Shown here: piece by piece, positions 5,706 through 20,201 of the stretch
Layout: each line of letters begins with the position of its first letter
Position numbering within the stretch: position 1 is the stretch's first letter
From: Naegleria gruberi
Lineage: Eukaryota
Reading direction: 5' to 3' (one strand)
Length of the DNA stretch: 20,502 nt
Assembly (NCBI GenBank): GCA_000004985.1
Contig: GG738953.1
Made by a program: the position numbers and the translations under genes
Notes under the pieces: generated by a model
Told to the model about the DNA's origin: nothing
The model's database searches: none
Seen by the model: only the letters and a program-made list of their open reading frames with translations

Positions 5706-6273
5706 TAATAATCGACATGTTGATATCATGAAGCATGATTTGATACTATTCTCGTTCAATGGAACGGGAAAGACGTGGCTTACTTGTTTGTATTGTTTGC
5801 AACAAATATTGGCGGGAAAAGTTAGGAGAGTCATTGTAGTTTGTCCAATATTGGAATATTGTCATCAATATGAAGAAAACTTAAAGACAATGATTGGATC
5901 TACTACTGATTCACAAGATGTTTTCTCATTCAAAATATTGAATAGTGCAACAGAAACGAAGGAATCAACGAAACATGTTAATATTATCATTAGTAGTTTA
6001 TCGAGATTGTTGGGATTTATTAGAAGAGGAATTATTGATACAACAGATGTGGATTTAATTATAGTGGATGATTTCGAATATTCAAAATCGTTGAATTCAT
6101 TGCAAGATTTCAAATATTTCTTTTCAAGATTTAACAACGCAAGAGCGATTGTTTCAACTGAAGGTGATAAGAAGATAATTCCACCAGTATTGAATAATCC
6201 TGCAATACTTTGTAGTATTCCTTTCAGTAATGAAAGTTATTACAATTACATCAATTTTGTTGGAAATCATTGA
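5706..6273 (+). CDS. Helicase-like P-loop ATPase domain fragment (SF1 UvrD/PIF1-like RecA domain 1A: motifs I, Ia, II, III); the 5' end is in the gap and the frame ends at TGA 6271-6273.
   Basis: The frame is open from the gap edge. Walker A is FNGTGKTWL. A motif Ia-like VIVVCPILEYCHQ follows. A motif II-like LIIVDDFEYS (compare UvrD VDEFQD, PIF1 LIIDEISM) lies ~93 aa after Walker A. A motif III-like IVSTEGDKKIIPPV (compare GDxxQLPPV) lies ~30 aa later. The order and spacing are canonical. The DE->DD and SAT/LVGD->STEG substitutions suggest a degenerate or inactive ATPase. Confidence 0.5.
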
Positions 6274-6528: not shown

Positions 6529-7188
6529 GTTGTAAGTCTCTCCCTTGTATGCAAGGAGTGGAATCGGATAGCAAGTTGCAATGATTTGTGGGAATTTTAC
6601 TTTCATTTACTTTCGAATAATCGGAAGGGAAAAACAAAAGTTTCTTCCGATACTATTTCACAAGATGAAAATTTCTGGAAACACAAAATGAGAGATAATT
6701 TCACTCAATATGCTTGCAGAGTTTCTAACAAGATTACACTTTATCAAAATTATTTACAAATTTGTGAATTGAAAGGAAATTTCCCTAACAAGTTTTCATC
6801 ACAATTGACCAGAATGATTCTAGCAAGAATGATGATCAATTCCATTCAATATACAGATGATTTAAACCTTAAACCATTCCAACAATATTTGGGGTTTAAA
6901 GAGCACTTTCATGCAACTATACATTTCAAGTTGACTGTGAAAATTAGTGGAATTGATGAGCCACTAATTGTAAGAACCAACTCGTATATTTACAAAGGAG
7001 ATATACCCTATTTTAGTTATCATTATTTAGATAATTATTACTTGTACTTTGCTAAGGAAAGTGATGACAAATTAAGGAATGAAATATTTATGAATGAGCC
7101 TTGTCCAGTTTACCGAATAAACGTGATTTTCCGCTTTTCGATTTCTTTTCGGTTGCGTTTTGTTAATAAAATTTTTGTTTTTATTTGA
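6529..7188 (+). CDS. F-box-like protein, main exon (the second half of the F-box is followed by a ~200-aa domain of unknown function).
   Basis: The acceptor is ttctggattattcacag|GTT at 6528/6529, with a branch-like 'aaactaat' ~20 nt upstream. The exon opens with VVSLSLVCKEWNRIASCNDLW, the diagnostic C-terminal half of an F-box. The open frame continues 220 codons to TGA 7186-7188. The last ~30 codons (EPCPVYRINVIFRFSISFRLRFVNKIFVFI) are low-complexity and overlap the 3' end of the transposase gene on the other strand, so the true stop or 3' exon is uncertain. Confidence 0.5.
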   Translation, partial: VVSLSLVCKEWNRIASCNDLWEFYFHLLSNNRKGKTKVSSDTISQDENFWKHKMRDNFTQYACRVSNKITLYQNYLQICELKGNFPNKFSSQLTRMILARMMINSIQYTDDLNLKPFQQYLGFKEHFHATIHFKLTVKISGIDEPLIVRTNSYIYKGDIPYFSYHYLDNYYLYFAKESDDKLRNEIFMNEPCPVYRINVIFRFSISFRLRFVNKIFVFI

Positions 7189-8086
7189 AAAGAACATTTG
7201 GTGGTTGTTTGCGGACAGGTTGAAAGCTGAGTGACAAGTTTGTCAACTTAGAGCAAATACGAACAATTCGTTGGTGCTTTTTAAGGTCACCTCTATAGGT
7301 ATGATGTACTATTTTAAACTTTTTAAATCTTCCGATTACTTGTTCAACAACAACTCTTCCTTGTCCTAATGTCTTGTTGTAGGATGCATCAAACGAAGAG
7401 AGCGATTGTCCTTTTTTCGCTTTCACTGGCGAAATTACGTGTTTTGCTTTTTTGTACGCTTTATCACCTAACACTCTTTCGTCTGGACCAATGTTCGGTT
7501 CTTTTTCTTGCAACCATTCATCCCACATCTTTTTGTCATGCATCGCACCAGGATACGCATTTGAAACATCAAGAATTTTCGCTGTTGTCAAACTCACTAA
7601 CATTTGATACTTCAATGCATGCATTCGCTTTTTATACGAATAATACAATTTCTGTTTGGCCCATAGTTTTTGCTTTTCGATTCTGCTTAATCCGGATTTC
7701 TTTCTACCAGACGGATTTTCAATCCTACATTCTGTACCATCAACAACAACTTTAATCCTTCTGAACATACCAGTAGCTGTGTTATTAATATCTTTTCTAT
7801 CATCAATATTTAGTGGTGGTAGATTGTTATCTAATACTTTTTGTCCTTTTTCAATGTTTGTGAAATATGATGAACGTGAAACATTCCAGTAAACAGGATG
7901 AACAAGTGAATTCGGATAAAGTGTTAAATATTCCATCAATATTAAAAACCATTTTTCACTCAATTTGTACTTGATGAATTTGTTGTAAATATATTGAAGT
8001 TGAGTAGAAGAAAAGCCAAATGATGCTCTAAAAGCACGTTCGTTTCCTTTTGGAAAGATGTTTTTGTATGTTGAAAAGAGAGGCAT
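7181..8086 (-). CDS. PIF/Harbinger-superfamily DDE transposase (DDE_Tnp_4-like), an intact 301-aa ORF.
   Basis: An N-terminal HTH-like segment (RAFRASFGFSSTQLQYI) is followed by the three acidic-residue motifs in canonical order and spacing. These are VVDGTECRIENP (D1), AYPGAMHDKKMW (D2, compare G.PGS.HD) and LGDKAYKKAK (D3, compare LGDSGY). The C-terminal motif YNKTLGQGRVVVEQVIGRFKKFKIV (compare R..VE..FG.LK.RF..L) follows. There are no internal stops, the start is ATG at 8086-8084 and the stop is TAA at 7183-7181. Confidence 0.85.
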   Translation of the reverse strand: MPLFSTYKNIFPKGNERAFRASFGFSSTQLQYIYNKFIKYKLSEKWFLILMEYLTLYPNSLVHPVYWNVSRSSYFTNIEKGQKVLDNNLPPLNIDDRKDINNTATGMFRRIKVVVDGTECRIENPSGRKKSGLSRIEKQKLWAKQKLYYSYKKRMHALKYQMLVSLTTAKILDVSNAYPGAMHDKKMWDEWLQEKEPNIGPDERVLGDKAYKKAKHVISPVKAKKGQSLSSFDASYNKTLGQGRVVVEQVIGRFKKFKIVHHTYRGDLKKHQRIVRICSKLTNLSLSFQPVRKQPPNVLFK

Positions 8087-8148
8087 TTTATTCGAATCCT
8101 AAATATTTAAATTTAAAAAATATTCGAATAAAAAGTTTCGAAAAAAAA
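8087..8148. promoter_or_regulatory. 62-bp AT-rich divergent intergenic region with three TTCGAA-core palindromes (a putative bidirectional promoter or protein-binding site).
   Basis: The region lies between the ATG at 8086 (- strand) and the ATG at 8149 (+ strand). ATTCGAAT occurs at 8090-8097, TATTCGAATA at 8121-8130 and TTTCGAAA at 8136-8143. Confidence 0.35.
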
Positions 8149-9249
8149 ATGCCTCCAAAGAAAGCCACTTCAGGAAAAGAAAAACCAAAAGAGAAACCGG
8201 TAGAGAAAAAAGCGGTTGAAGCGAAGCCTCGGTTTTTAGCAGCAGACAAGGTAAAATTAAAGGATTTTTACTTAAAAAACAAGAAAGCAGGTGTAAAGCA
8301 AGAGAGTGTGTTTACTTCATTCGGCCAACTTTATGGTTATTCTAATTCACAAGTGAGAAGAGCATATTATTCGATTTTCGGTAAACAAAAAACAAAAAAC
8401 GAAACCGAAACCGAACCGGAAGATGACGATGTTTCCGAAAATGTTGATGATGATATGATAGAAAGACAAGAATTTACTGATAGAATGGACAGTTATCTTG
8501 CTGAATCTGAGCAAAAAACTGAGAAGAAGAGAAAGAGACAACTTGAGAAGGAGCCAACTTATGATGATGATGATGATGAATGTGATTACGAACAATCAGA
8601 TGAAGATTACGAATATTCGGATGAAGATATTTTACCGGCAACTCCGTCGAAAGTAACAAAAGTAGTGAGCATTAATGACAAATCAACAAGTTTATTCCGT
8701 CCTTTTAGATTCGAATCAGAAACTCATCGCTTCATCATTTATAGATTTCCCACATGGACTGATTTTAAATTTTCACATGTGGAGATGTCAAAAGAAAAGA
8801 TGATAGTTATTCATGTGAAGATTAATGCTAAACTTTCCGAAAGTTGTGTAGTAGAATCTTTCGCTCCATTTGCGAAAAATTTAAAAGCGAACACTGACAG
8901 AAAGGATGAACAGTTCACCATCAAAGAACCGGTTCCGAAAGATGTTGATGTTAAAACTGTAAAGTGTGGTCCTTTGAATTTGAAAGGCGTTTACGATTTG
9001 GATGACCGTGTATTCGCAGTGCTATTAGAAAAGAAATTGCAAACATTCGCACCAACTTTTGATGCTAATGAATTGTCAAATTTCATTGCGAAGGCTTCTG
9101 TTACAAGTAGCTCTTCTGACACACAACTTGTCAACACTCAAACATCACAAGCGCTTACCAGCAACTCCACTGCCGCCACAACAGAAGATGCAACCGGCAA
9201 CAAAGAAATCGCAAACGCAACTCAAAACACAAGAGAAGAGTCTGAATAA
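8149..9249 (+). CDS. Lysine-rich N-terminal / acidic-central protein (366 aa); a possible Harbinger ORF2 partner or a host chromatin-type protein.
   Basis: ATG 8149 sits in an 'aaaaaaaaATGc' context. The ORF is uninterrupted to TAA 9247-9249. The N-terminal region is rich in K/E/P (MPPKKATSGKEKPKEKPVEKK). A helix-rich aromatic segment (FLAADKVKLKDFYLKNK...FGQLYGYSNSQVRRAYYSIF) is followed by an acidic tract DDDDDECDYEQSDEDYEYSDED, then a beta-rich segment and an S/T-rich tail. The longer ORF start at 8050 was rejected because it overlaps the transposase start on the opposite strand. Confidence 0.55.
   Translation: MPPKKATSGKEKPKEKPVEKKAVEAKPRFLAADKVKLKDFYLKNKKAGVKQESVFTSFGQLYGYSNSQVRRAYYSIFGKQKTKNETETEPEDDDVSENVDDDMIERQEFTDRMDSYLAESEQKTEKKRKRQLEKEPTYDDDDDECDYEQSDEDYEYSDEDILPATPSKVTKVVSINDKSTSLFRPFRFESETHRFIIYRFPTWTDFKFSHVEMSKEKMIVIHVKINAKLSESCVVESFAPFAKNLKANTDRKDEQFTIKEPVPKDVDVKTVKCGPLNLKGVYDLDDRVFAVLLEKKLQTFAPTFDANELSNFIAKASVTSSSSDTQLVNTQTSQALTSNSTAATTEDATGNKEIANATQNTREESE
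8563..8580 (+). repeat. (GAT)5-GAA microsatellite inside the CDS, encoding DDDDDE.
   Basis: The literal sequence gatgatgatgatgatgaa lies in frame with the 8149 ORF. Confidence 0.6.
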
Positions 9250-9326
9250 ACAATTTCACTTCTGCTTTCATTCGAATTTCCGAATTTTCCTGTTTTTCCG
9301 TTAAGTCGGACACAGCTCAATAATGG

Positions 9327-12250: not shown

Positions 12251-13782
12251 CGGCTAGAATACCATTACACTTTGGGATTGAACAAAATCTTCCTCCCCAA
12301 TGAGTTTCATCATTACATTTGCAAATGTCATCTGCCAAACAATTTCCTCTTCCATTACAAACATTTTCCATGGTCGACAAAGTGCCATTACACTTCAAGA
12401 TTTGACAGTCATTACCACCAAATGCATACGTATCGAAACATTGACATTGATTTGGGGAAATGCATTGACCTCTGGAATTGCAAACTGTTGGATCTGATGC
12501 TGATGTCAAATTACATTTTGGAACGTCACATTTCAATCCATTCCATTGAGATTGATCTCTACAGACACATGTATCATGAGATACACAATCACCTCTTCCT
12601 GAACAAACACTGCTTGTTTGATTTGCTATTATTCCAAAACATACTGGAATTTCACATTTCTCACCAACATATCTTGACGTGTTGAAGCATTGACAGGTAT
12701 TAAGTGCAATACAAGAGCCATTTCCTGAACAAACTGTTTCATCATTTGCTAAAGTACCATTACATTTTGGAATTTCACAATTTTCACCTCCATAATTAGA
12801 ATTACATTTACAATAATTGTAACGTTCACAAATTCCATTACCATTACATGCAGTAGATGAGTTTGAAAACTTTCCAAAACATGTTGTTACTGTACACTCA
12901 GGTCCATAATAATTTTCATTACACATGCATGTATTCACATCAACACATGTTCCATTTCCATGACATGCTAAAAAAGGATATTTGCTTTCAGATGATTTCC
13001 CATAACATTCAGGAAGACATGTTCTTCCATCACCACTCAACACATAACCAACACCATCACAATATGGATAAACCTTCTTAATCAATCCAGCAACATCATC
13101 AGCAATATAAATCTCATTCTTATTCTCCCTCACAAAAACATTAAAAGGAGAATCCAAGTAACAATTCACTGGATCAGAATTGTCTGGACATCCACTCGAG
13201 GAATTTGTACTTCCAGCAATGATTTCCACTTGTCTATTTTGAATCTTTTTAACCTGCTTCAATCCAGGATCAGCAACAAACAATTCATCATGTGCTGTGT
13301 AATATAATCCCATTGGATTATTCCATGGAGTGGCTGTGAAATTTGCATCATTGAATGGTGGATACTCTGGATAAGGATTCCAATCTGGAGTGCTAGCACT
13401 GAATATGGTGTATGTTTCAGGAAGAACTAATCTCATAATTTTCCCATAATAAATATAGTAAATGTCACCTGTTAGTGGTGATGCAACTATTCCACCATCG
13501 GTAGGTGATAAACCACAATTAGTGAACCAGTTAAATGAATTATAATTTGCCAAACTATAGTAACCCACGCAATTGTTACCAACATCCATGAAAAGCAACC
13601 AATTGTGAAATTTATCGATGGAAAGCATCTTTCCAAAGTACATGACATTAGGTAGAGTTGTAATAGTTGTTTTTCCATAGTTGAGTGCTCTTATTTTCAT
13701 ACTAAAATATTCAGATAGGTAGACTTTCTCTTGTGCTTCATCAACAGCAATAAAAGGTTGATCTATAAATCTTTCGTTTCGA
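12251..13782 (-). CDS. Secreted NHL-repeat beta-propeller plus tandem tenascin-type EGF repeat protein, exon 2; the 3' end continues into the N run.
   Basis: A 1.5-kb frame is open on the minus strand. NHL-like blades are present (NNPMGLYYTAHDELFVADPGLKQVKKI; LDSPFNVFVRENKNEIYIADDVAGLIKKV; RFIDQPFIAVDEAQEKVYLSEY). At least 6 tandem ~39-aa repeats follow, each C-x(10-12)-C-x-G-x-G-x-C-x5-C-x-C-x(7-8)-G-x-x-C-x-x-P-K (for example CNGTLANDETVCSGNGSCIALNTCQCFNTSRYVGEKCEIPV). There are many N-x-S/T sites. The acceptor is ttctaaactag|T at 13783/13782, and a proximal alternative is tattttag|T at 13702/13701. Both are in phase with exon 1. Confidence 0.75.
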
Positions 13783-18555: not shown

Positions 18556-19050
18556 ATGTCAAACTTTGTTGATCTGCCATCCGAGTTGCAAATTGAAATA
18601 TTTTCCATTCTCTCTGTTAAACATTTGAGAAATATTCTTTCAATTAACAAATCAATTCATGAGCAATTGATTCAATCAGAAACATTTTGGAGAACCTTGA
18701 TCAAGAATTATTCGAAAGTGATCGGAGAAAGTGCTTATGGAGTTGAACAAGCATCACAAGAATTATTCGAAATTGAAAATGTCAAGAAACAGTTAATTGA
18801 AATGATAGAAATAAAAAAGAGAAAAACTAAACAATTCCAACAGATGTCTATGGAATTAGAATACATGTTAAGAGAATTAGAAATGGTTCAGAGAGAAATG
18901 AATGCACGAAATGAAAGTACTTTGCTATTGGGAGGAAACATCAGTGATCAATTCAAAAATCAAATTGAAAGTTTGAAGCAAAAAGGTGAAAGTGTGAAAA
19001 AGGAAACGGAAGAAATTGCAGAAAAGTTAAAGAAAACGATTATTGATTAA
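18556..19050 (+). CDS. F-box domain protein (164 aa) with a C-terminal coiled-coil-like region.
   Basis: ATG 18556 sits in an 'aaaaaaATGt' context. The N-terminal F-box is LPSELQIEIFSILSVKHLRNILSINKSIHEQL (LP.E..IEIFS.L....L.....K). The remainder is K/E-rich with heptad-like hydrophobic spacing. The stop is TAA at 19048-19050. Confidence 0.7.
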   Translation: MSNFVDLPSELQIEIFSILSVKHLRNILSINKSIHEQLIQSETFWRTLIKNYSKVIGESAYGVEQASQELFEIENVKKQLIEMIEIKKRKTKQFQQMSMELEYMLRELEMVQREMNARNESTLLLGGNISDQFKNQIESLKQKGESVKKETEEIAEKLKKTIID

Positions 19051-19664: not shown

Positions 19665-20201
19665 TTACAATTTGTTGGATAACCAATCCAATCCCTCGAA
19701 TAAACCAGAACCATTCAAAGCACTACATGGCTGTATGTACCAATCTTGCTTGATTGAATTTAATTGTAGATTCTTTGCAATATCTGTGACATTAGCAGCT
19801 CTCGGTAAATCTTGCTTATTAGCCCACACCAATAACTTGGCATTTGACAATGATGGATCCTCCATCACTTTATGCAATGTTTCTGACACTTCTTCAAATC
19901 TCTCTCTATCATTCGAATCTACAATGAAAATCACAGCATCTGTTCCATTGTAATAGTGTCTCCACAAGGTTCTAATCATATCCTGACCACCAATGTCAAA
20001 AACTCTGAATTGAACTCTCTTGTATTGAATCACTTCGGCATTGAAACCAATGGTAGGTATAGTACTGACATTCTCATCTAATTGTATCTTGTACAGAGTT
20101 GAGGTTTTACCAGCTGCATCCAAACCTAGGAAGAGAATTTTGGCTTCCTTTTGTTCGAATAAGGACAAGCCCTTGATCATGTTAGAAAGTAATTGACCCA
20201 T
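19665..20201 (-). CDS. ARF: ADP-ribosylation factor (ARF-family small GTPase, ARF1-like), an intronless 178-aa ORF.
   Basis: ATG 20201 sits in a 'caaaaATGG' context. The protein starts with Gly2 (N-myristoylation). G1 is GLDAAGKT, G3 is DIGGQ and G4 is [26 protein letters not shown] and the C-terminal [13 protein letters not shown] are near-identical to ARF1 signatures. The stop is TAA at 19664-19662. Confidence 0.9.

What the first reader, a model, noticed from the sequence alone, without database searches (positions are those of the whole stretch)
7181..9249. Intact Harbinger/PIF DDE transposase paired head-to-head with an uncharacterised 366-aa ORF
The transposase ORF has all three catalytic-motif blocks and the C-terminal RF..L motif with no frameshifts. 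This suggests a recent, possibly active copy or a domesticated HARBI1-like gene. Harbinger elements are two-gene transposons, and the partner gene normally encodes a Myb/SANT-like protein needed for nuclear import and TIR binding. Here the only nearby ORF, 62 bp away and divergently transcribed, is a K-rich/acidic protein with an aromatic-spaced helical N-domain (F..FY...F..YGY...YY). It may be a diverged ORF2. I could not find TIRs. This points to one of three cases: the termini lie in the adjacent N run, the pair is domesticated (like HARBI1/NAIF1), or the partner ORF is an unrelated host gene.
Basis: partly seen in the sequence, partly recalled or inferred. Interest (0 to 1): 0.6.

Follow-up and report, generated by a model that had tools for sequence, protein, structure and literature searches.

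The report
Two-gene Harbinger-like transposon in Naegleria
This is a complete, compact (2.2 kb) cut-and-paste DNA transposon of the amoeba Naegleria gruberi that carries a transposase gene and a second, DNA-binding-type helper gene; it looks recently mobile, but it is an ordinary member of a known transposon superfamily.

Summary
A 301-aa DDE_Tnp_4 transposase (7181-8086, minus strand) lies 62 bp head-to-head with a 366-aa ORF (8149-9249). The window is a whole Naegleria gruberi scaffold.

A second copy on a metagenome contig is about 99.8% identical over window 7096-9318 only, and its flanks are unrelated. That boundary coincides with imperfect 27-bp terminal inverted repeats (19/27 matching) and a 3-bp target duplication: AAT here, ATT in the other copy.

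A diverged sister element (transposase 41% identical, partner 29%) has the same head-to-head gene pair, a perfect 17-bp TIR and an ATT duplication. The partner ORF is therefore the element's own second gene. The pair is a recently mobile transposon, not a domesticated HARBI1/NAIF1-like pair.

The A-N-T duplication and a second ORF with no recognised motif match the published "Pangu"/Harbinger2 group, not canonical TWA Harbingers. The partner is not detectably Myb/SANT. It has a predicted homeodomain-like three-helix domain, an acidic linker with a KKRKR motif, and a predicted alpha-crystallin-like beta-sandwich.

Stand-alone homologues exist in N. fowleri. A Repbase N. gruberi PIF_Harbinger family already exists, so novelty is low.

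The parts
7093..7095 (.). Left 3-bp target-site duplication, AAT
   Evidence: The same AAT recurs at 9319-9321. In the second copy (L001) both flanking triplets are ATT in element orientation, so the middle base differs between copies but matches within each copy.
7096..7122 (+). Left terminal inverted repeat, GAGCCTTGTCCAGTTTACCGAATAAAC
   Evidence: It starts exactly where similarity to L001 begins. It matches the reverse complement of 9292-9318 at 19 of 27 positions; only 19 of 2,000,000 random 27-mer pairs from the window reach that level. GAGCNNTGTCC occurs exactly only at the two ends, in inverted orientation.
7181..8086 (-). Transposase gene, 301 aa, uninterrupted
   Evidence: Pfam DDE_Tnp_4 at E 4.1e-29 with full profile coverage. 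It also matches NCBIfam IS5-family model NF033581 at E 6e-16, below that model's cutoff. It is 99% identical to the L001 copy and 41% identical to the L003 copy.
7238..7744 (-). DDE catalytic core (aa 115-283) with D116, D208 and E248
   Evidence: Extent of the Pfam match. Residue positions were computed directly. All three residues are invariant in alignment A3.
8087..8148 (.). 62-bp divergent intergenic region, presumed bidirectional promoter, with two ATTCGAAT palindromes (8090-8097 and 8122-8129)
   Evidence: Sequence read directly. ATTCGAAT occurs 6 times in the window against 0.4 expected, and 4 of the 6 lie inside the element. The promoter function is inferred.
8149..9249 (+). Second gene (ORF2, NAEGRDRAFT_82314), 366 aa
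   Evidence: 100% identical to the annotated N. gruberi protein. It lies inside the TIRs. A homologue is paired head-to-head with a homologous transposase in L003. Only seven homologues were found among 1.84 billion representative proteins; those that carry a name are from Naegleria.
8230..8388 (+). ORF2 N-terminal homeodomain-like three-helix domain (about aa 28-80)
8401..8643 (+). Acidic low-complexity linker (35 D/E in 81 aa) containing KKRKR (aa 126-130, nt 8524-8538), a possible nuclear localisation signal
   Evidence: Composition and motif positions were computed. pLDDT is low here. The copies differ by one in-frame GAT within the poly-D run. The NLS role is inferred.
8695..9039 (+). ORF2 C-terminal beta-sandwich resembling the alpha-crystallin (small heat-shock protein)/CS domain (about aa 183-297)
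9292..9318 (-). Right terminal inverted repeat; its reverse complement reads GAGCTGTGTCCGACTTAACGGAAAAAC
   Evidence: It ends exactly where similarity to L001 ends.
9319..9321 (.). Right 3-bp target-site duplication, AAT

Best explanation
Window 7096-9318 is one complete, apparently autonomous and recently mobile copy of a 2,223-bp two-gene cut-and-paste DNA transposon of Naegleria gruberi. It belongs to the PIF/Harbinger-ISL2EU-Spy (PHIS, IS5-related) superfamily.

Shown:
- Imperfect 27-bp TIRs.
- A 3-bp A-W-T target duplication.
- An intact DDE transposase.
- A co-inherited second gene.
- Two near-identical copies at different loci.

Inferred mechanism, by analogy with Harbinger3_DR and Ping/Pong, where both proteins are needed:
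- The two genes are transcribed divergently from the 62-bp spacer.
- The ORF2 protein enters the nucleus (K-rich N-terminus, KKRKR) and binds the element's ends through its homeodomain-like helix-turn-helix domain.
- ORF2 uses its alpha-crystallin-like beta-sandwich to dimerise and/or hold the transposase.
- The transposase (D116/D208/E248) excises the element at the TIRs and reinserts it with a 3-bp staggered cut at A-N-T sites.

By target duplication and gene content the element fits the 'Pangu'/Harbinger2 type rather than canonical TWA Harbingers.
For: Species: the partner protein is 100% identical to NAEGRDRAFT_82314, on a contig of 20,502 bp, which is the window's length.

Element boundaries: L001 1133-3360 matches window 9319-7095 at 99.6%, and neither flank matches. 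Inside the element the two copies differ by 5 substitutions and one in-frame 3-bp indel.

TIRs: 19 of 27 positions match, a level reached by about 1e-5 of random 27-mer pairs, and they sit exactly at the copy boundaries.

Target duplications: AAT/AAT in the window, ATT/ATT in L001 (element orientation) and ATT/ATT in L003.

Sister element L003: a DDE_Tnp_4 transposase of 307 aa (41% identical) lies head-to-head with a 330-aa ORF2 homologue (29% identical), between perfect 17-bp TIRs AGAGTCTGTAAAATTCC.

Transposase: Pfam E 4e-29 with full-length profile coverage, and a conserved DDE triad. IS5 affinity is shown by NCBIfam and by bacterial IS relatives at 26-41% identity.

ORF2 domains.

Literature: Pangu elements have A-N-T duplications, 11-40 bp TIRs, and two ORFs of which the second has no known motif (PMC4482050). 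Harbinger2 in Repbase corresponds to Pangu (PMC12730594). Harbinger transposition needs the second protein, which binds subterminal DNA and co-localises the transposase to the nucleus (PMC9710019 background).
Against: - No transposition, expression, DNA-binding or protein-interaction data exist. The role of ORF2 rests on analogy.
- Only three insertions (two families) define the target duplication. Because the outer A and T never vary, a 3-bp A-W-T duplication cannot be formally separated from a 1-bp duplication with T...A element ends; both predict the same empty site.
- The second copy comes from a metagenome, so it may be from another strain.
- The window's TIR begins GA, not the AG/GG reported as usual for Pangu.
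- Phylogenetic placement was not tested. A Repbase N. gruberi family (PIF_Harbinger-1_Ngru, possibly this element) falls outside the Harbinger2/Pangu clade in a published tree, with weak support (bootstrap 35).
- The homeodomain similarity is marginal (E about 0.015), and the WFxNxR signature of helix 3 is absent.
- The C-terminal fold comes from a model built on a shallow 7-sequence alignment.
- Stand-alone ORF2 homologues with no transposase nearby exist, so the family is not strictly transposon-bound.
Confidence: 0.8

Rival explanations
1. ORF2 is a passenger: a host-derived gene captured between the TIRs, or a gene with a role unrelated to transposition such as a chaperone-like or regulatory protein. 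On this reading the transposase alone mobilises the element.
For: Stand-alone homologues with both domains sit among ordinary genes with no transposase nearby. This holds in N. fowleri (FDP41_012129, same neighbours in two assemblies: L005, L006) and on metagenome contig L002. ORF2 has no detectable Myb/SANT/MADF domain. The alpha-crystallin-like fold is typical of chaperones.
Against: The gene pair and its head-to-head arrangement persist across elements whose proteins have diverged to 41% and 29% identity, with both ORFs intact. That persistence argues for selection on ORF2 within the element. Two-gene organisation with an obligatory DNA-binding helper is the rule in this superfamily (PMC4482050, PMC9710019). 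ORF2 has an HTH-type domain and a basic NLS-like motif, as such helpers do.
Confidence: 0.12
2. The pair is a domesticated, immobile HARBI1/NAIF1-like host gene pair.
For: Both ORFs are intact, and stand-alone ORF2 homologues exist in Naegleria.
Against: TIRs and target duplications are present. A copy about 99.8% identical sits at an unrelated locus between an ornithine-cyclodeaminase-like gene and a probable sterol-reductase gene tail (read by eye). A further copy lies on another N. gruberi scaffold (P0002). The insertion in the window lands inside a host ORF.
Confidence: 0.03
3. It is a canonical PIF/Harbinger element with a TWA target duplication and a Myb/SANT-type ORF too diverged to detect.
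Against: The duplications are AAT/ATT in all three insertions; none is TWA. None of the 7 family members has a Myb_DNA-bind or MADF Pfam hit at E<=10. Profile comparison favours homeodomains (Prob 85%) over Myb repeats (0.3%). The homeodomain-versus-Myb control also scores only 0.5%.
Confidence: 0.05

Closest known systems
'Pangu' group of the PHIS superfamily (Han et al. 2015, PMC4482050), equivalent to Harbinger2 in Repbase (PMC12730594)
   Same: 3-bp A-N-T/A-W-T target duplication. Short TIRs (11-40 bp reported; 27 and 17 bp here). Size of 2-3 kb. A DDE_Tnp_4 transposase with no other recognised domain. A second ORF of 170-590 aa in which no known motif is detected. Affinity to bacterial IS5.
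   Different: Pangu was not reported from Naegleria or any heterolobosean, although both N. gruberi and N. fowleri were among the 836 genomes screened. The window's TIR begins GA rather than AG/GG. Clade membership of the transposase was not tested. ORF2 here has a predicted homeodomain-like plus alpha-crystallin-like architecture, which has not been described for the group.
Canonical PIF/Harbinger elements (Harbinger3_DR, Ping/Pong, PIF)
   Same: Two-gene cut-and-paste transposon: a DDE transposase plus a separate HTH-type helper, a 3-bp duplication and short TIRs. The likely division of labour is the same (helper binds the ends and supplies nuclear import; transposase cuts).
   Different: The target is A-W-T, not T-W-A. 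The helper is not detectably Myb/SANT/MADF. The element is unusually compact (2.2 kb, transposase only 301 aa, no introns).
Repbase family PIF_Harbinger-1_Ngru (named only in the tree file of PMC12730594)
   Same: A PIF/Harbinger-type transposase family from the same species. In the published tree it sits close to the bacterial IS5 family, as this transposase's NCBIfam and GTDB hits would suggest.
   Different: It could instead be the sister family seen in L003.
Bacterial IS5-family insertion sequences
   Same: The transposase core is homologous: NF033581 at E 6e-16, and 26-41% identity to multi-copy IS transposases in Robiginitomaculum, Rhodobacteraceae, Bdellovibrionales and Nostoc genomes.
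   Different: Bacterial IS elements carry a single gene with no ORF2. The score is below the NCBIfam family cutoff (58.6 against 140 bits). The host here is a eukaryote.
HARBI1/NAIF1 and other co-domesticated Harbinger gene pairs
   Same: A transposase plus a helper protein derived from the same kind of element. The stand-alone ORF2 homologues in Naegleria could be analogous to NAIF1.
   Different: The pair in this window still has TIRs, target duplications and near-identical copies elsewhere, so it is a transposon and not a host gene pair.

Membership tests
PHIS (PIF/Harbinger-ISL2EU-Spy) superfamily | DDE_Tnp_4/IS5-like transposase with an intact D-D-E triad | tested here: met
   Pfam PF13359 at E 4.1e-29, covering profile positions 1-158 of 158. 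D116, D208 and E248 are present and conserved.
PHIS (PIF/Harbinger-ISL2EU-Spy) superfamily | Terminal inverted repeats at the element boundaries | tested here: met
   27-bp TIRs with 19/27 matches lie at the boundaries defined by the second copy. The sister element has a perfect 17-bp TIR.
Canonical PIF/Harbinger | 3-bp T-W-A (TAA/TTA) target-site duplication | tested here: not met
   The duplication is AAT in the window, ATT in L001 (element orientation) and ATT in L003.
Canonical PIF/Harbinger | Second ORF with a Myb/SANT/MADF/trihelix domain | tested here: not met
   None of the 7 family members has a Pfam hit at E<=10. hhalign against c-Myb/TRF-type repeats gives Prob 0.3%. Caveat: MADF and Myb_DNA-bind_3/4/5 were tested only through hmmscan, not by profile-profile comparison.
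Pangu / Harbinger2 group | 3-bp A-N-T target-site duplication | tested here: met
   Three insertions in two families carry AAT or ATT. The definition comes from PMC4482050.
Pangu / Harbinger2 group | Two ORFs: a DDE transposase with no other domain, and a second ORF with no known motif | tested here: met
   Compare Table S3 of PMC4482050.
Pangu / Harbinger2 group | TIR of 11-40 bp, usually starting AG or GG | tested here: inconclusive
   The lengths fit (27 and 17 bp). The L003 TIR starts AG, but the window's TIR starts GA.
Pangu / Harbinger2 group | Transposase clusters within the Pangu/Harbinger2 clade | not tested
   No reference sequences were available. In the published tree, PIF_Harbinger-1_Ngru lies outside that clade, with bootstrap 35.
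Homeodomain (for the ORF2 N-terminal domain) | Three-helix homeodomain fold with profile-level similarity | tested here: met
   The AF2 three-helix bundle has pLDDT above 90. The top 7 PDB profile hits are PBX1/Exd, E 0.015-0.08. hhalign gives Prob 85%. Foldseek hits homeodomains. All of this is marginal to moderate in strength.
Homeodomain (for the ORF2 N-terminal domain) | Helix-3 WFxNxR signature with Asn51 | tested here: not met
   The family has QV(R/K)xxx(Y/W)Y at this position and no conserved Asn/Arg pattern. I therefore call it homeodomain-like, not a homeobox protein.
Small-HSP alpha-crystallin / CS domain (for the ORF2 C-terminal domain) | Seven- to eight-stranded beta-sandwich of the HSP20/CS fold | tested here: met
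Small-HSP alpha-crystallin / CS domain (for the ORF2 C-terminal domain) | Sequence-level match to the HSP20 or CS families | tested here: not met
   No Pfam hit. No PDB sequence or profile hit to small HSPs.
Domesticated HARBI1/NAIF1-like pair | Loss of TIRs and target duplications, single copy, conserved synteny | tested here: not met
   TIRs and duplications are present, and copies exist at unrelated loci.

The most novel reading that the evidence does not exclude
The helper protein is not a diverged Myb protein. It may be a lineage-specific replacement, a homeodomain-like plus alpha-crystallin-like protein so far found only in Naegleria and in unidentified (probably related) sequences. This family exists both inside transposons (the window, L001, L003) and as stand-alone chromosomal genes (N. 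fowleri FDP41_012129, L002, and possibly NAEGRDRAFT_62561 and NAEGRDRAFT_72928). Two histories are possible. Either a host DNA-binding gene was captured and took over the accessory role in an IS5-like eukaryotic transposon, or the transposon's helper has been domesticated on its own, without the transposase, as a Naegleria regulator. Either case would be accessory-gene turnover or solo-helper domestication in this superfamily.
Probability: 0.3. Interest if true: 0.5.

Novelty: new member of a known kind. Interest (0 to 1): 0.3.

Why it matters
- Annotation. NAEGRDRAFT_82314 and its partial twin (P0002) are transposon genes, not host genes. The adjacent transposase ORF appears to be unannotated: its exact sequence is absent from the protein collection that does hold its neighbour.
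- Transposon biology. The element gives a fully delimited A-N-T-type Harbinger relative in Heterolobosea, a lineage in which the main survey reported none. It also offers a first structural guess for the 'no known motif' second ORF of such elements: an HTH domain plus a beta-sandwich.
- Practical use. A 2.2-kb, intron-less, apparently recently active two-gene transposon could be a starting point for insertional tools in Naegleria. To my knowledge few genetic tools exist for this organism.

None of this overturns current understanding.

Tried and rejected
- Single-sequence searches of ORF2 against Pfam, NCBIfam and PDB found nothing useful.
- A word-indexed search with the family alignment returned only 3 proteins, because low-complexity candidates swamped it.
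- Exact-protein look-ups of P0001, P0002, P0004, P0006 and the window's transposase found no contig on record. I therefore could not see whether the other N. gruberi paralogues sit next to transposases.
- Two JGI metagenome scans (transposase alignment, then ORF2 alignment) and one viral scan found no relatives. One alignment was too variable to search with.
- The afdb50 fold library was unavailable.
- The generic inverted-repeat finder did not rank the true TIRs among its top 25 pairs. They emerged only from the copy-to-copy comparison.
- A candidate subterminal motif, TTTCCG(M)(W), occurs 4 times in the window, all inside the element and all on the plus strand. It is not convincingly enriched (5 of 100 shuffles reach 4), and the related motif in L003 is not enriched either.
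- ATTCGAAT is not conserved in L003.
- I tried to read the target duplication of the related bacterial IS in Robiginitomaculum. The ends read TAGACTCG...CGAGTCTA, but no consistent 3-bp duplication emerged, so this is inconclusive.
- No TIR-like repeats flank the stand-alone homologues in L005 or L002.
- I could not identify the organism behind assembly GCA_050043615.1, the source of L003.


Full report
**What the window is.** The 366-aa ORF at 8149-9249 is 100% identical to Naegleria gruberi hypothetical protein NAEGRDRAFT_82314. That protein's only contig is 20,502 bp long, the same length as the window. The window is therefore a whole small scaffold of the N. gruberi assembly. It has three long N gaps, and about 33% G+C in the sequenced parts. 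Around the finding lie ordinary host genes: a DEAD-box helicase fragment (5706-6273) and an EGF-repeat protein (12251-13700, minus strand). Two more are read by eye only: an F-box-like ORF (18556-19050) and an ARF-type GTPase (19665-20201, minus strand).

**Checking the observation.** The transposase is 7181-8086 on the minus strand (301 aa), and the partner is 8149-9249 on the plus strand (366 aa). They are exactly 62 bp apart.
- The 301-aa protein matches Pfam DDE_Tnp_4 at E 4.1e-29 over the whole profile (1-158 of 158).
- The catalytic residues are D116 (VVVDGTE), D208 (LGDKAY) and E248 (VVVEQVIGR). All three are conserved in a relative that is only 41% identical.
- As a single sequence, the partner has no Pfam, NCBIfam or PDB hit.

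**Finding the ends.** The word-indexed protein search returned one near-identical transposase (P0003, 99%) from an ENA metagenome contig. That contig, L001 (4,014 bp), carries the same head-to-head pair.

BLASTN shows that L001 1133-3360 equals window 9319-7095 at 99.6%, and nothing else matches. On the far sides L001 has an ornithine-cyclodeaminase/mu-crystallin gene and the tail of what looks by eye like a sterol-reductase gene. These are unrelated to the window's flanks.

The shared block is therefore a discrete mobile unit. Its ends are:
- Left end: GAGCCTTGTCCAGTTTACCGAATAAAC (7096-7122).
- Right end: the reverse complement of 9292-9318, GAGCTGTGTCCGACTTAACGGAAAAAC.

They match at 19 of 27 positions. 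Only 19 of 2,000,000 random 27-mer pairs from the window do as well. The core GAGCNNTGTCC occurs exactly only at these two places, in inverted orientation.

Immediately outside the ends, the window has AAT on both sides (7093-7095 and 9319-9321). Read in element orientation, L001 has ATT on both sides. The middle base differs between copies but agrees within each copy, which is what a target-site duplication looks like. The right end lies 8 bp before the N run, so the termini are not hidden in the gap.

Inside the 2,223-bp element the two copies differ by only five substitutions and one in-frame GAT in a poly-Asp run. Three of the substitutions are non-synonymous changes in the transposase, and two are silent changes in ORF2. 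Such near-identity at different loci points to recent transposition.

A further copy exists on a 13,269-bp N. gruberi scaffold. Its annotated product is the partial protein P0002. Part of that gene model reads the acidic region in a shifted frame.

**Is the partner ORF part of the element?** Yes.
- It lies between the TIRs and travels with the transposase in both fully sequenced copies.
- An exhaustive HMMER search of 1.84 billion representative proteins found only seven homologues. The named ones are all Naegleria: N. gruberi NAEGRDRAFT_62561 (43% identical) and NAEGRDRAFT_72928, and N. fowleri FDP41_012129.
- One unnamed homologue, P0005 (24-29% identical), sits on contig L003 of assembly GCA_050043615.1. 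There it lies head-to-head, 115 bp apart, with a 307-aa DDE_Tnp_4 protein that is 41% identical to the window's transposase.
- That pair is bounded by a perfect 17-bp TIR (AGAGTCTGTAAAATTCC / GGAATTTTACAGACTCT) and flanked by ATT on both sides.

The same gene pair, the same orientation, a TIR and an A-T-T duplication all recur in a family this diverged. That shows the second ORF is a constitutive gene of this transposon lineage. It also rules out both the 'domesticated pair' and the 'unrelated host neighbour' readings for the copy in the window.

**Which kind of element?** Canonical PIF/Harbinger elements duplicate T-W-A. All three insertions seen here duplicate A-A-T or A-T-T.

Han et al. 2015 (PMC4482050) split the PHIS superfamily by exactly this feature. 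Their 'Pangu' group has:
- 5'-ANT-3' duplications;
- TIRs of 11-40 bp, usually starting AG or GG;
- a DDE transposase with no other domain;

They noted that the A-N-T duplication is shared with bacterial IS5. Their Table S3 lists elements of 2-8 kb with transposases of 216-537 aa and second ORFs of 170-592 aa. Kojima 2025 (PMC12730594) equates Pangu with Repbase 'Harbinger2'.

The Naegleria element fits on target duplication, TIR length, size and gene content. Its IS5 affinity is visible in two ways. It matches NCBIfam IS5 model NF033581 at E 6e-16, below that family's cutoff. It is also 26-41% identical to multi-copy IS transposases in alphaproteobacterial, Bdellovibrionales and Nostoc genomes.

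Two caveats apply:
- The window's TIR starts GA, although the L003 TIR starts AG.
- I could not run a phylogeny against reference Pangu sequences.

N. gruberi and N. fowleri were among the 836 genomes Han et al. screened, yet no family was reported from them. The Newick tree in PMC12730594, however, contains a Repbase entry named PIF_Harbinger-1_Ngru. It sits, weakly supported (bootstrap 35), near the IS5/ISL2EU part of the tree rather than inside Harbinger2. That entry may be this very element. I could not obtain its sequence. I therefore file the element as A-N-T-type ('Pangu-like') by structure, with clade membership untested, and I treat its existence in this species as probably already catalogued.

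**What the second protein looks like.** The seven family members share two conserved blocks separated by an acidic, low-complexity linker.

N-terminal block (residues about 28-80):
- AlphaFold2 folds it confidently into three helices, with pLDDT above 90 both without and with the alignment.
- A profile of the family searched against all PDB sequences returns TALE homeodomains (PBX1, Extradenticle) as its seven best hits, E 0.015-0.08. The alignment covers the basic arm, helix 1 and the '...G(F/I)T.SQV...' recognition helix.
Against c-Myb/TRF-type Myb repeats it gives 0.3%. A homeodomain-versus-Myb control gives 0.5%.
- The helix-3 WFxNxR signature of true homeodomains is missing.

I call this block homeodomain-like. 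It is a DNA-binding-type HTH, but it is neither a tested Myb/SANT domain nor a bona fide homeobox.

Linker: it carries 35 Asp/Glu in 81 residues and a KKRKR motif at residues 126-130. The extreme N-terminus is Lys-rich.

**How it most likely works.**

Shown: an intact DDE transposase, TIRs, 3-bp duplications, recent copies, and a conserved second gene.

Inferred from work on Harbinger3_DR and rice Ping/Pong, as summarised in PMC9710019. In those systems both proteins are required, the helper binds subterminal DNA, it binds the transposase, and it is needed for the transposase's nuclear localisation. By analogy:
- The two genes here are expressed divergently from the 62-bp spacer.
- The ORF2 protein supplies nuclear import (KKRKR and the Lys-rich N-terminus; the transposase has no comparable basic cluster).
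- ORF2 recognises the ends through its HTH domain.
- Its beta-sandwich, a fold that typically mediates dimerisation or client binding, pairs two helper molecules and/or docks the transposase.
- The transposase then cuts at the TIRs and inserts with a 3-bp stagger at A-N-T sites.

I give about 0.8 to the identification as a mobile two-gene transposon whose ORF2 is an element gene. I give roughly 0.5 to the specific helper mechanism.

**Rivals.**
- ORF2 as a passenger or captured host gene (0.12). Stand-alone homologues favour it: N. fowleri FDP41_012129 sits among ordinary genes with the same neighbours in two assemblies, with no transposase within 10 kb and no flanking inverted repeats. The same holds for metagenome contig L002. 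The conserved pairing across deep divergence argues against it.
- A domesticated pair (0.03). This is contradicted by the TIRs, the duplications and the multiple loci.
- A canonical Harbinger with a cryptic Myb domain (0.05). This is contradicted by the target duplication and by the profile tests.

**Novelty and interest.** This is a well-formed but ordinary member of a known transposon superfamily, and a Repbase family from the same species already exists.

Modestly new points:
- the exact delimitation of the element (TIRs and duplications);
- its A-N-T type in a heterolobosean;
- the unannotated transposase gene;
- the predicted homeodomain-like plus alpha-crystallin-like architecture of the second protein;
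- the coexistence of transposon-borne and stand-alone members of that protein family in Naegleria.

The last point leaves open solo-helper domestication or accessory-gene capture (probability about 0.3). Overall interest: 0.3.

Noticed in passing
window 6586-7095, continuing past 9322: The element sits inside a host ORF whose upstream part reads F-box-like (...SLSLVCKEWNRIASCNDLWEF...). The frame runs ...EIFMN into the insertion. With the element and one AAT removed it would read on (...ATG AAT AAT GG...) into the N gap. The insertion therefore probably disrupts, or truncates near the C-terminus, a host gene. The ORF has no Pfam hit.
   Followed up: partly
window 8090-8097, 8122-8129, 8709-8716, 9270-9277 (also 19502 and 19911): The 8-bp palindrome ATTCGAAT occurs 6 times in the window against 0.4 expected. 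Four of the six are inside the element, two of them within the 62-bp divergent spacer. It could be a promoter element or a protein-binding site. No TTCGAAW site, and hence no ATTCGAAT, occurs in the sister element L003.
   Followed up: partly
window 7181-8086 (-): The transposase ORF appears to be unannotated in N. gruberi. Its exact sequence is absent both from the 5.8-billion-protein collection and from the gene-position index, yet the neighbouring NAEGRDRAFT_82314 is present from NCBI.
   Followed up: partly
window 9327 (start of the N run), 8 bp after the right target duplication: The assembly gap begins almost exactly at the element's right boundary. This is what one expects when a multi-copy repeat breaks an assembly.
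   Followed up: no
L005 10001-10984 (N. fowleri VFQX01000013.1) and L006: A stand-alone homologue of ORF2 (FDP41_012129) has both domains and lies between a multi-pass membrane protein gene and a 1,061-aa gene. There is no transposase within 10 kb and no flanking TIRs. The gene order is the same in a second assembly. It may be a domesticated helper or an ancestral host gene.
   Followed up: partly
P0002 (N. gruberi EFC35876.1, 13,269-bp scaffold): This 'predicted protein, partial' is another copy of ORF2. Its gene model reads the acidic region in a shifted frame: MKIFYRQLRR corresponds to the +1 frame of ...gatgaagatattttaccggcaactccgtcg.... It is either a decayed copy or a sequencing or annotation artefact.
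   Followed up: partly
L009-L017 (Robiginitomaculum sp. MAG chromosome OZ245059.1): At least nine copies of IS5-type elements of about 1 kb occur here. Their transposases are 33-41% identical to the Naegleria transposase core. The copies fall into two or more sub-families about 73% identical at the DNA level. Their ends read TAGACTCG...CGAGTCTA, and I could not derive a consistent 3-bp duplication.
   Followed up: partly
window 7128, 8432, 8834, 9277 (+); L003 584, 2677 (+): All four TTTCCG(M)(W) sites in the window lie inside the element and on the same strand, including one near each end. The related motif TTCCGMW lies near each end of L003. The enrichment is statistically weak, but these could be subterminal binding sites.
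   Followed up: partly
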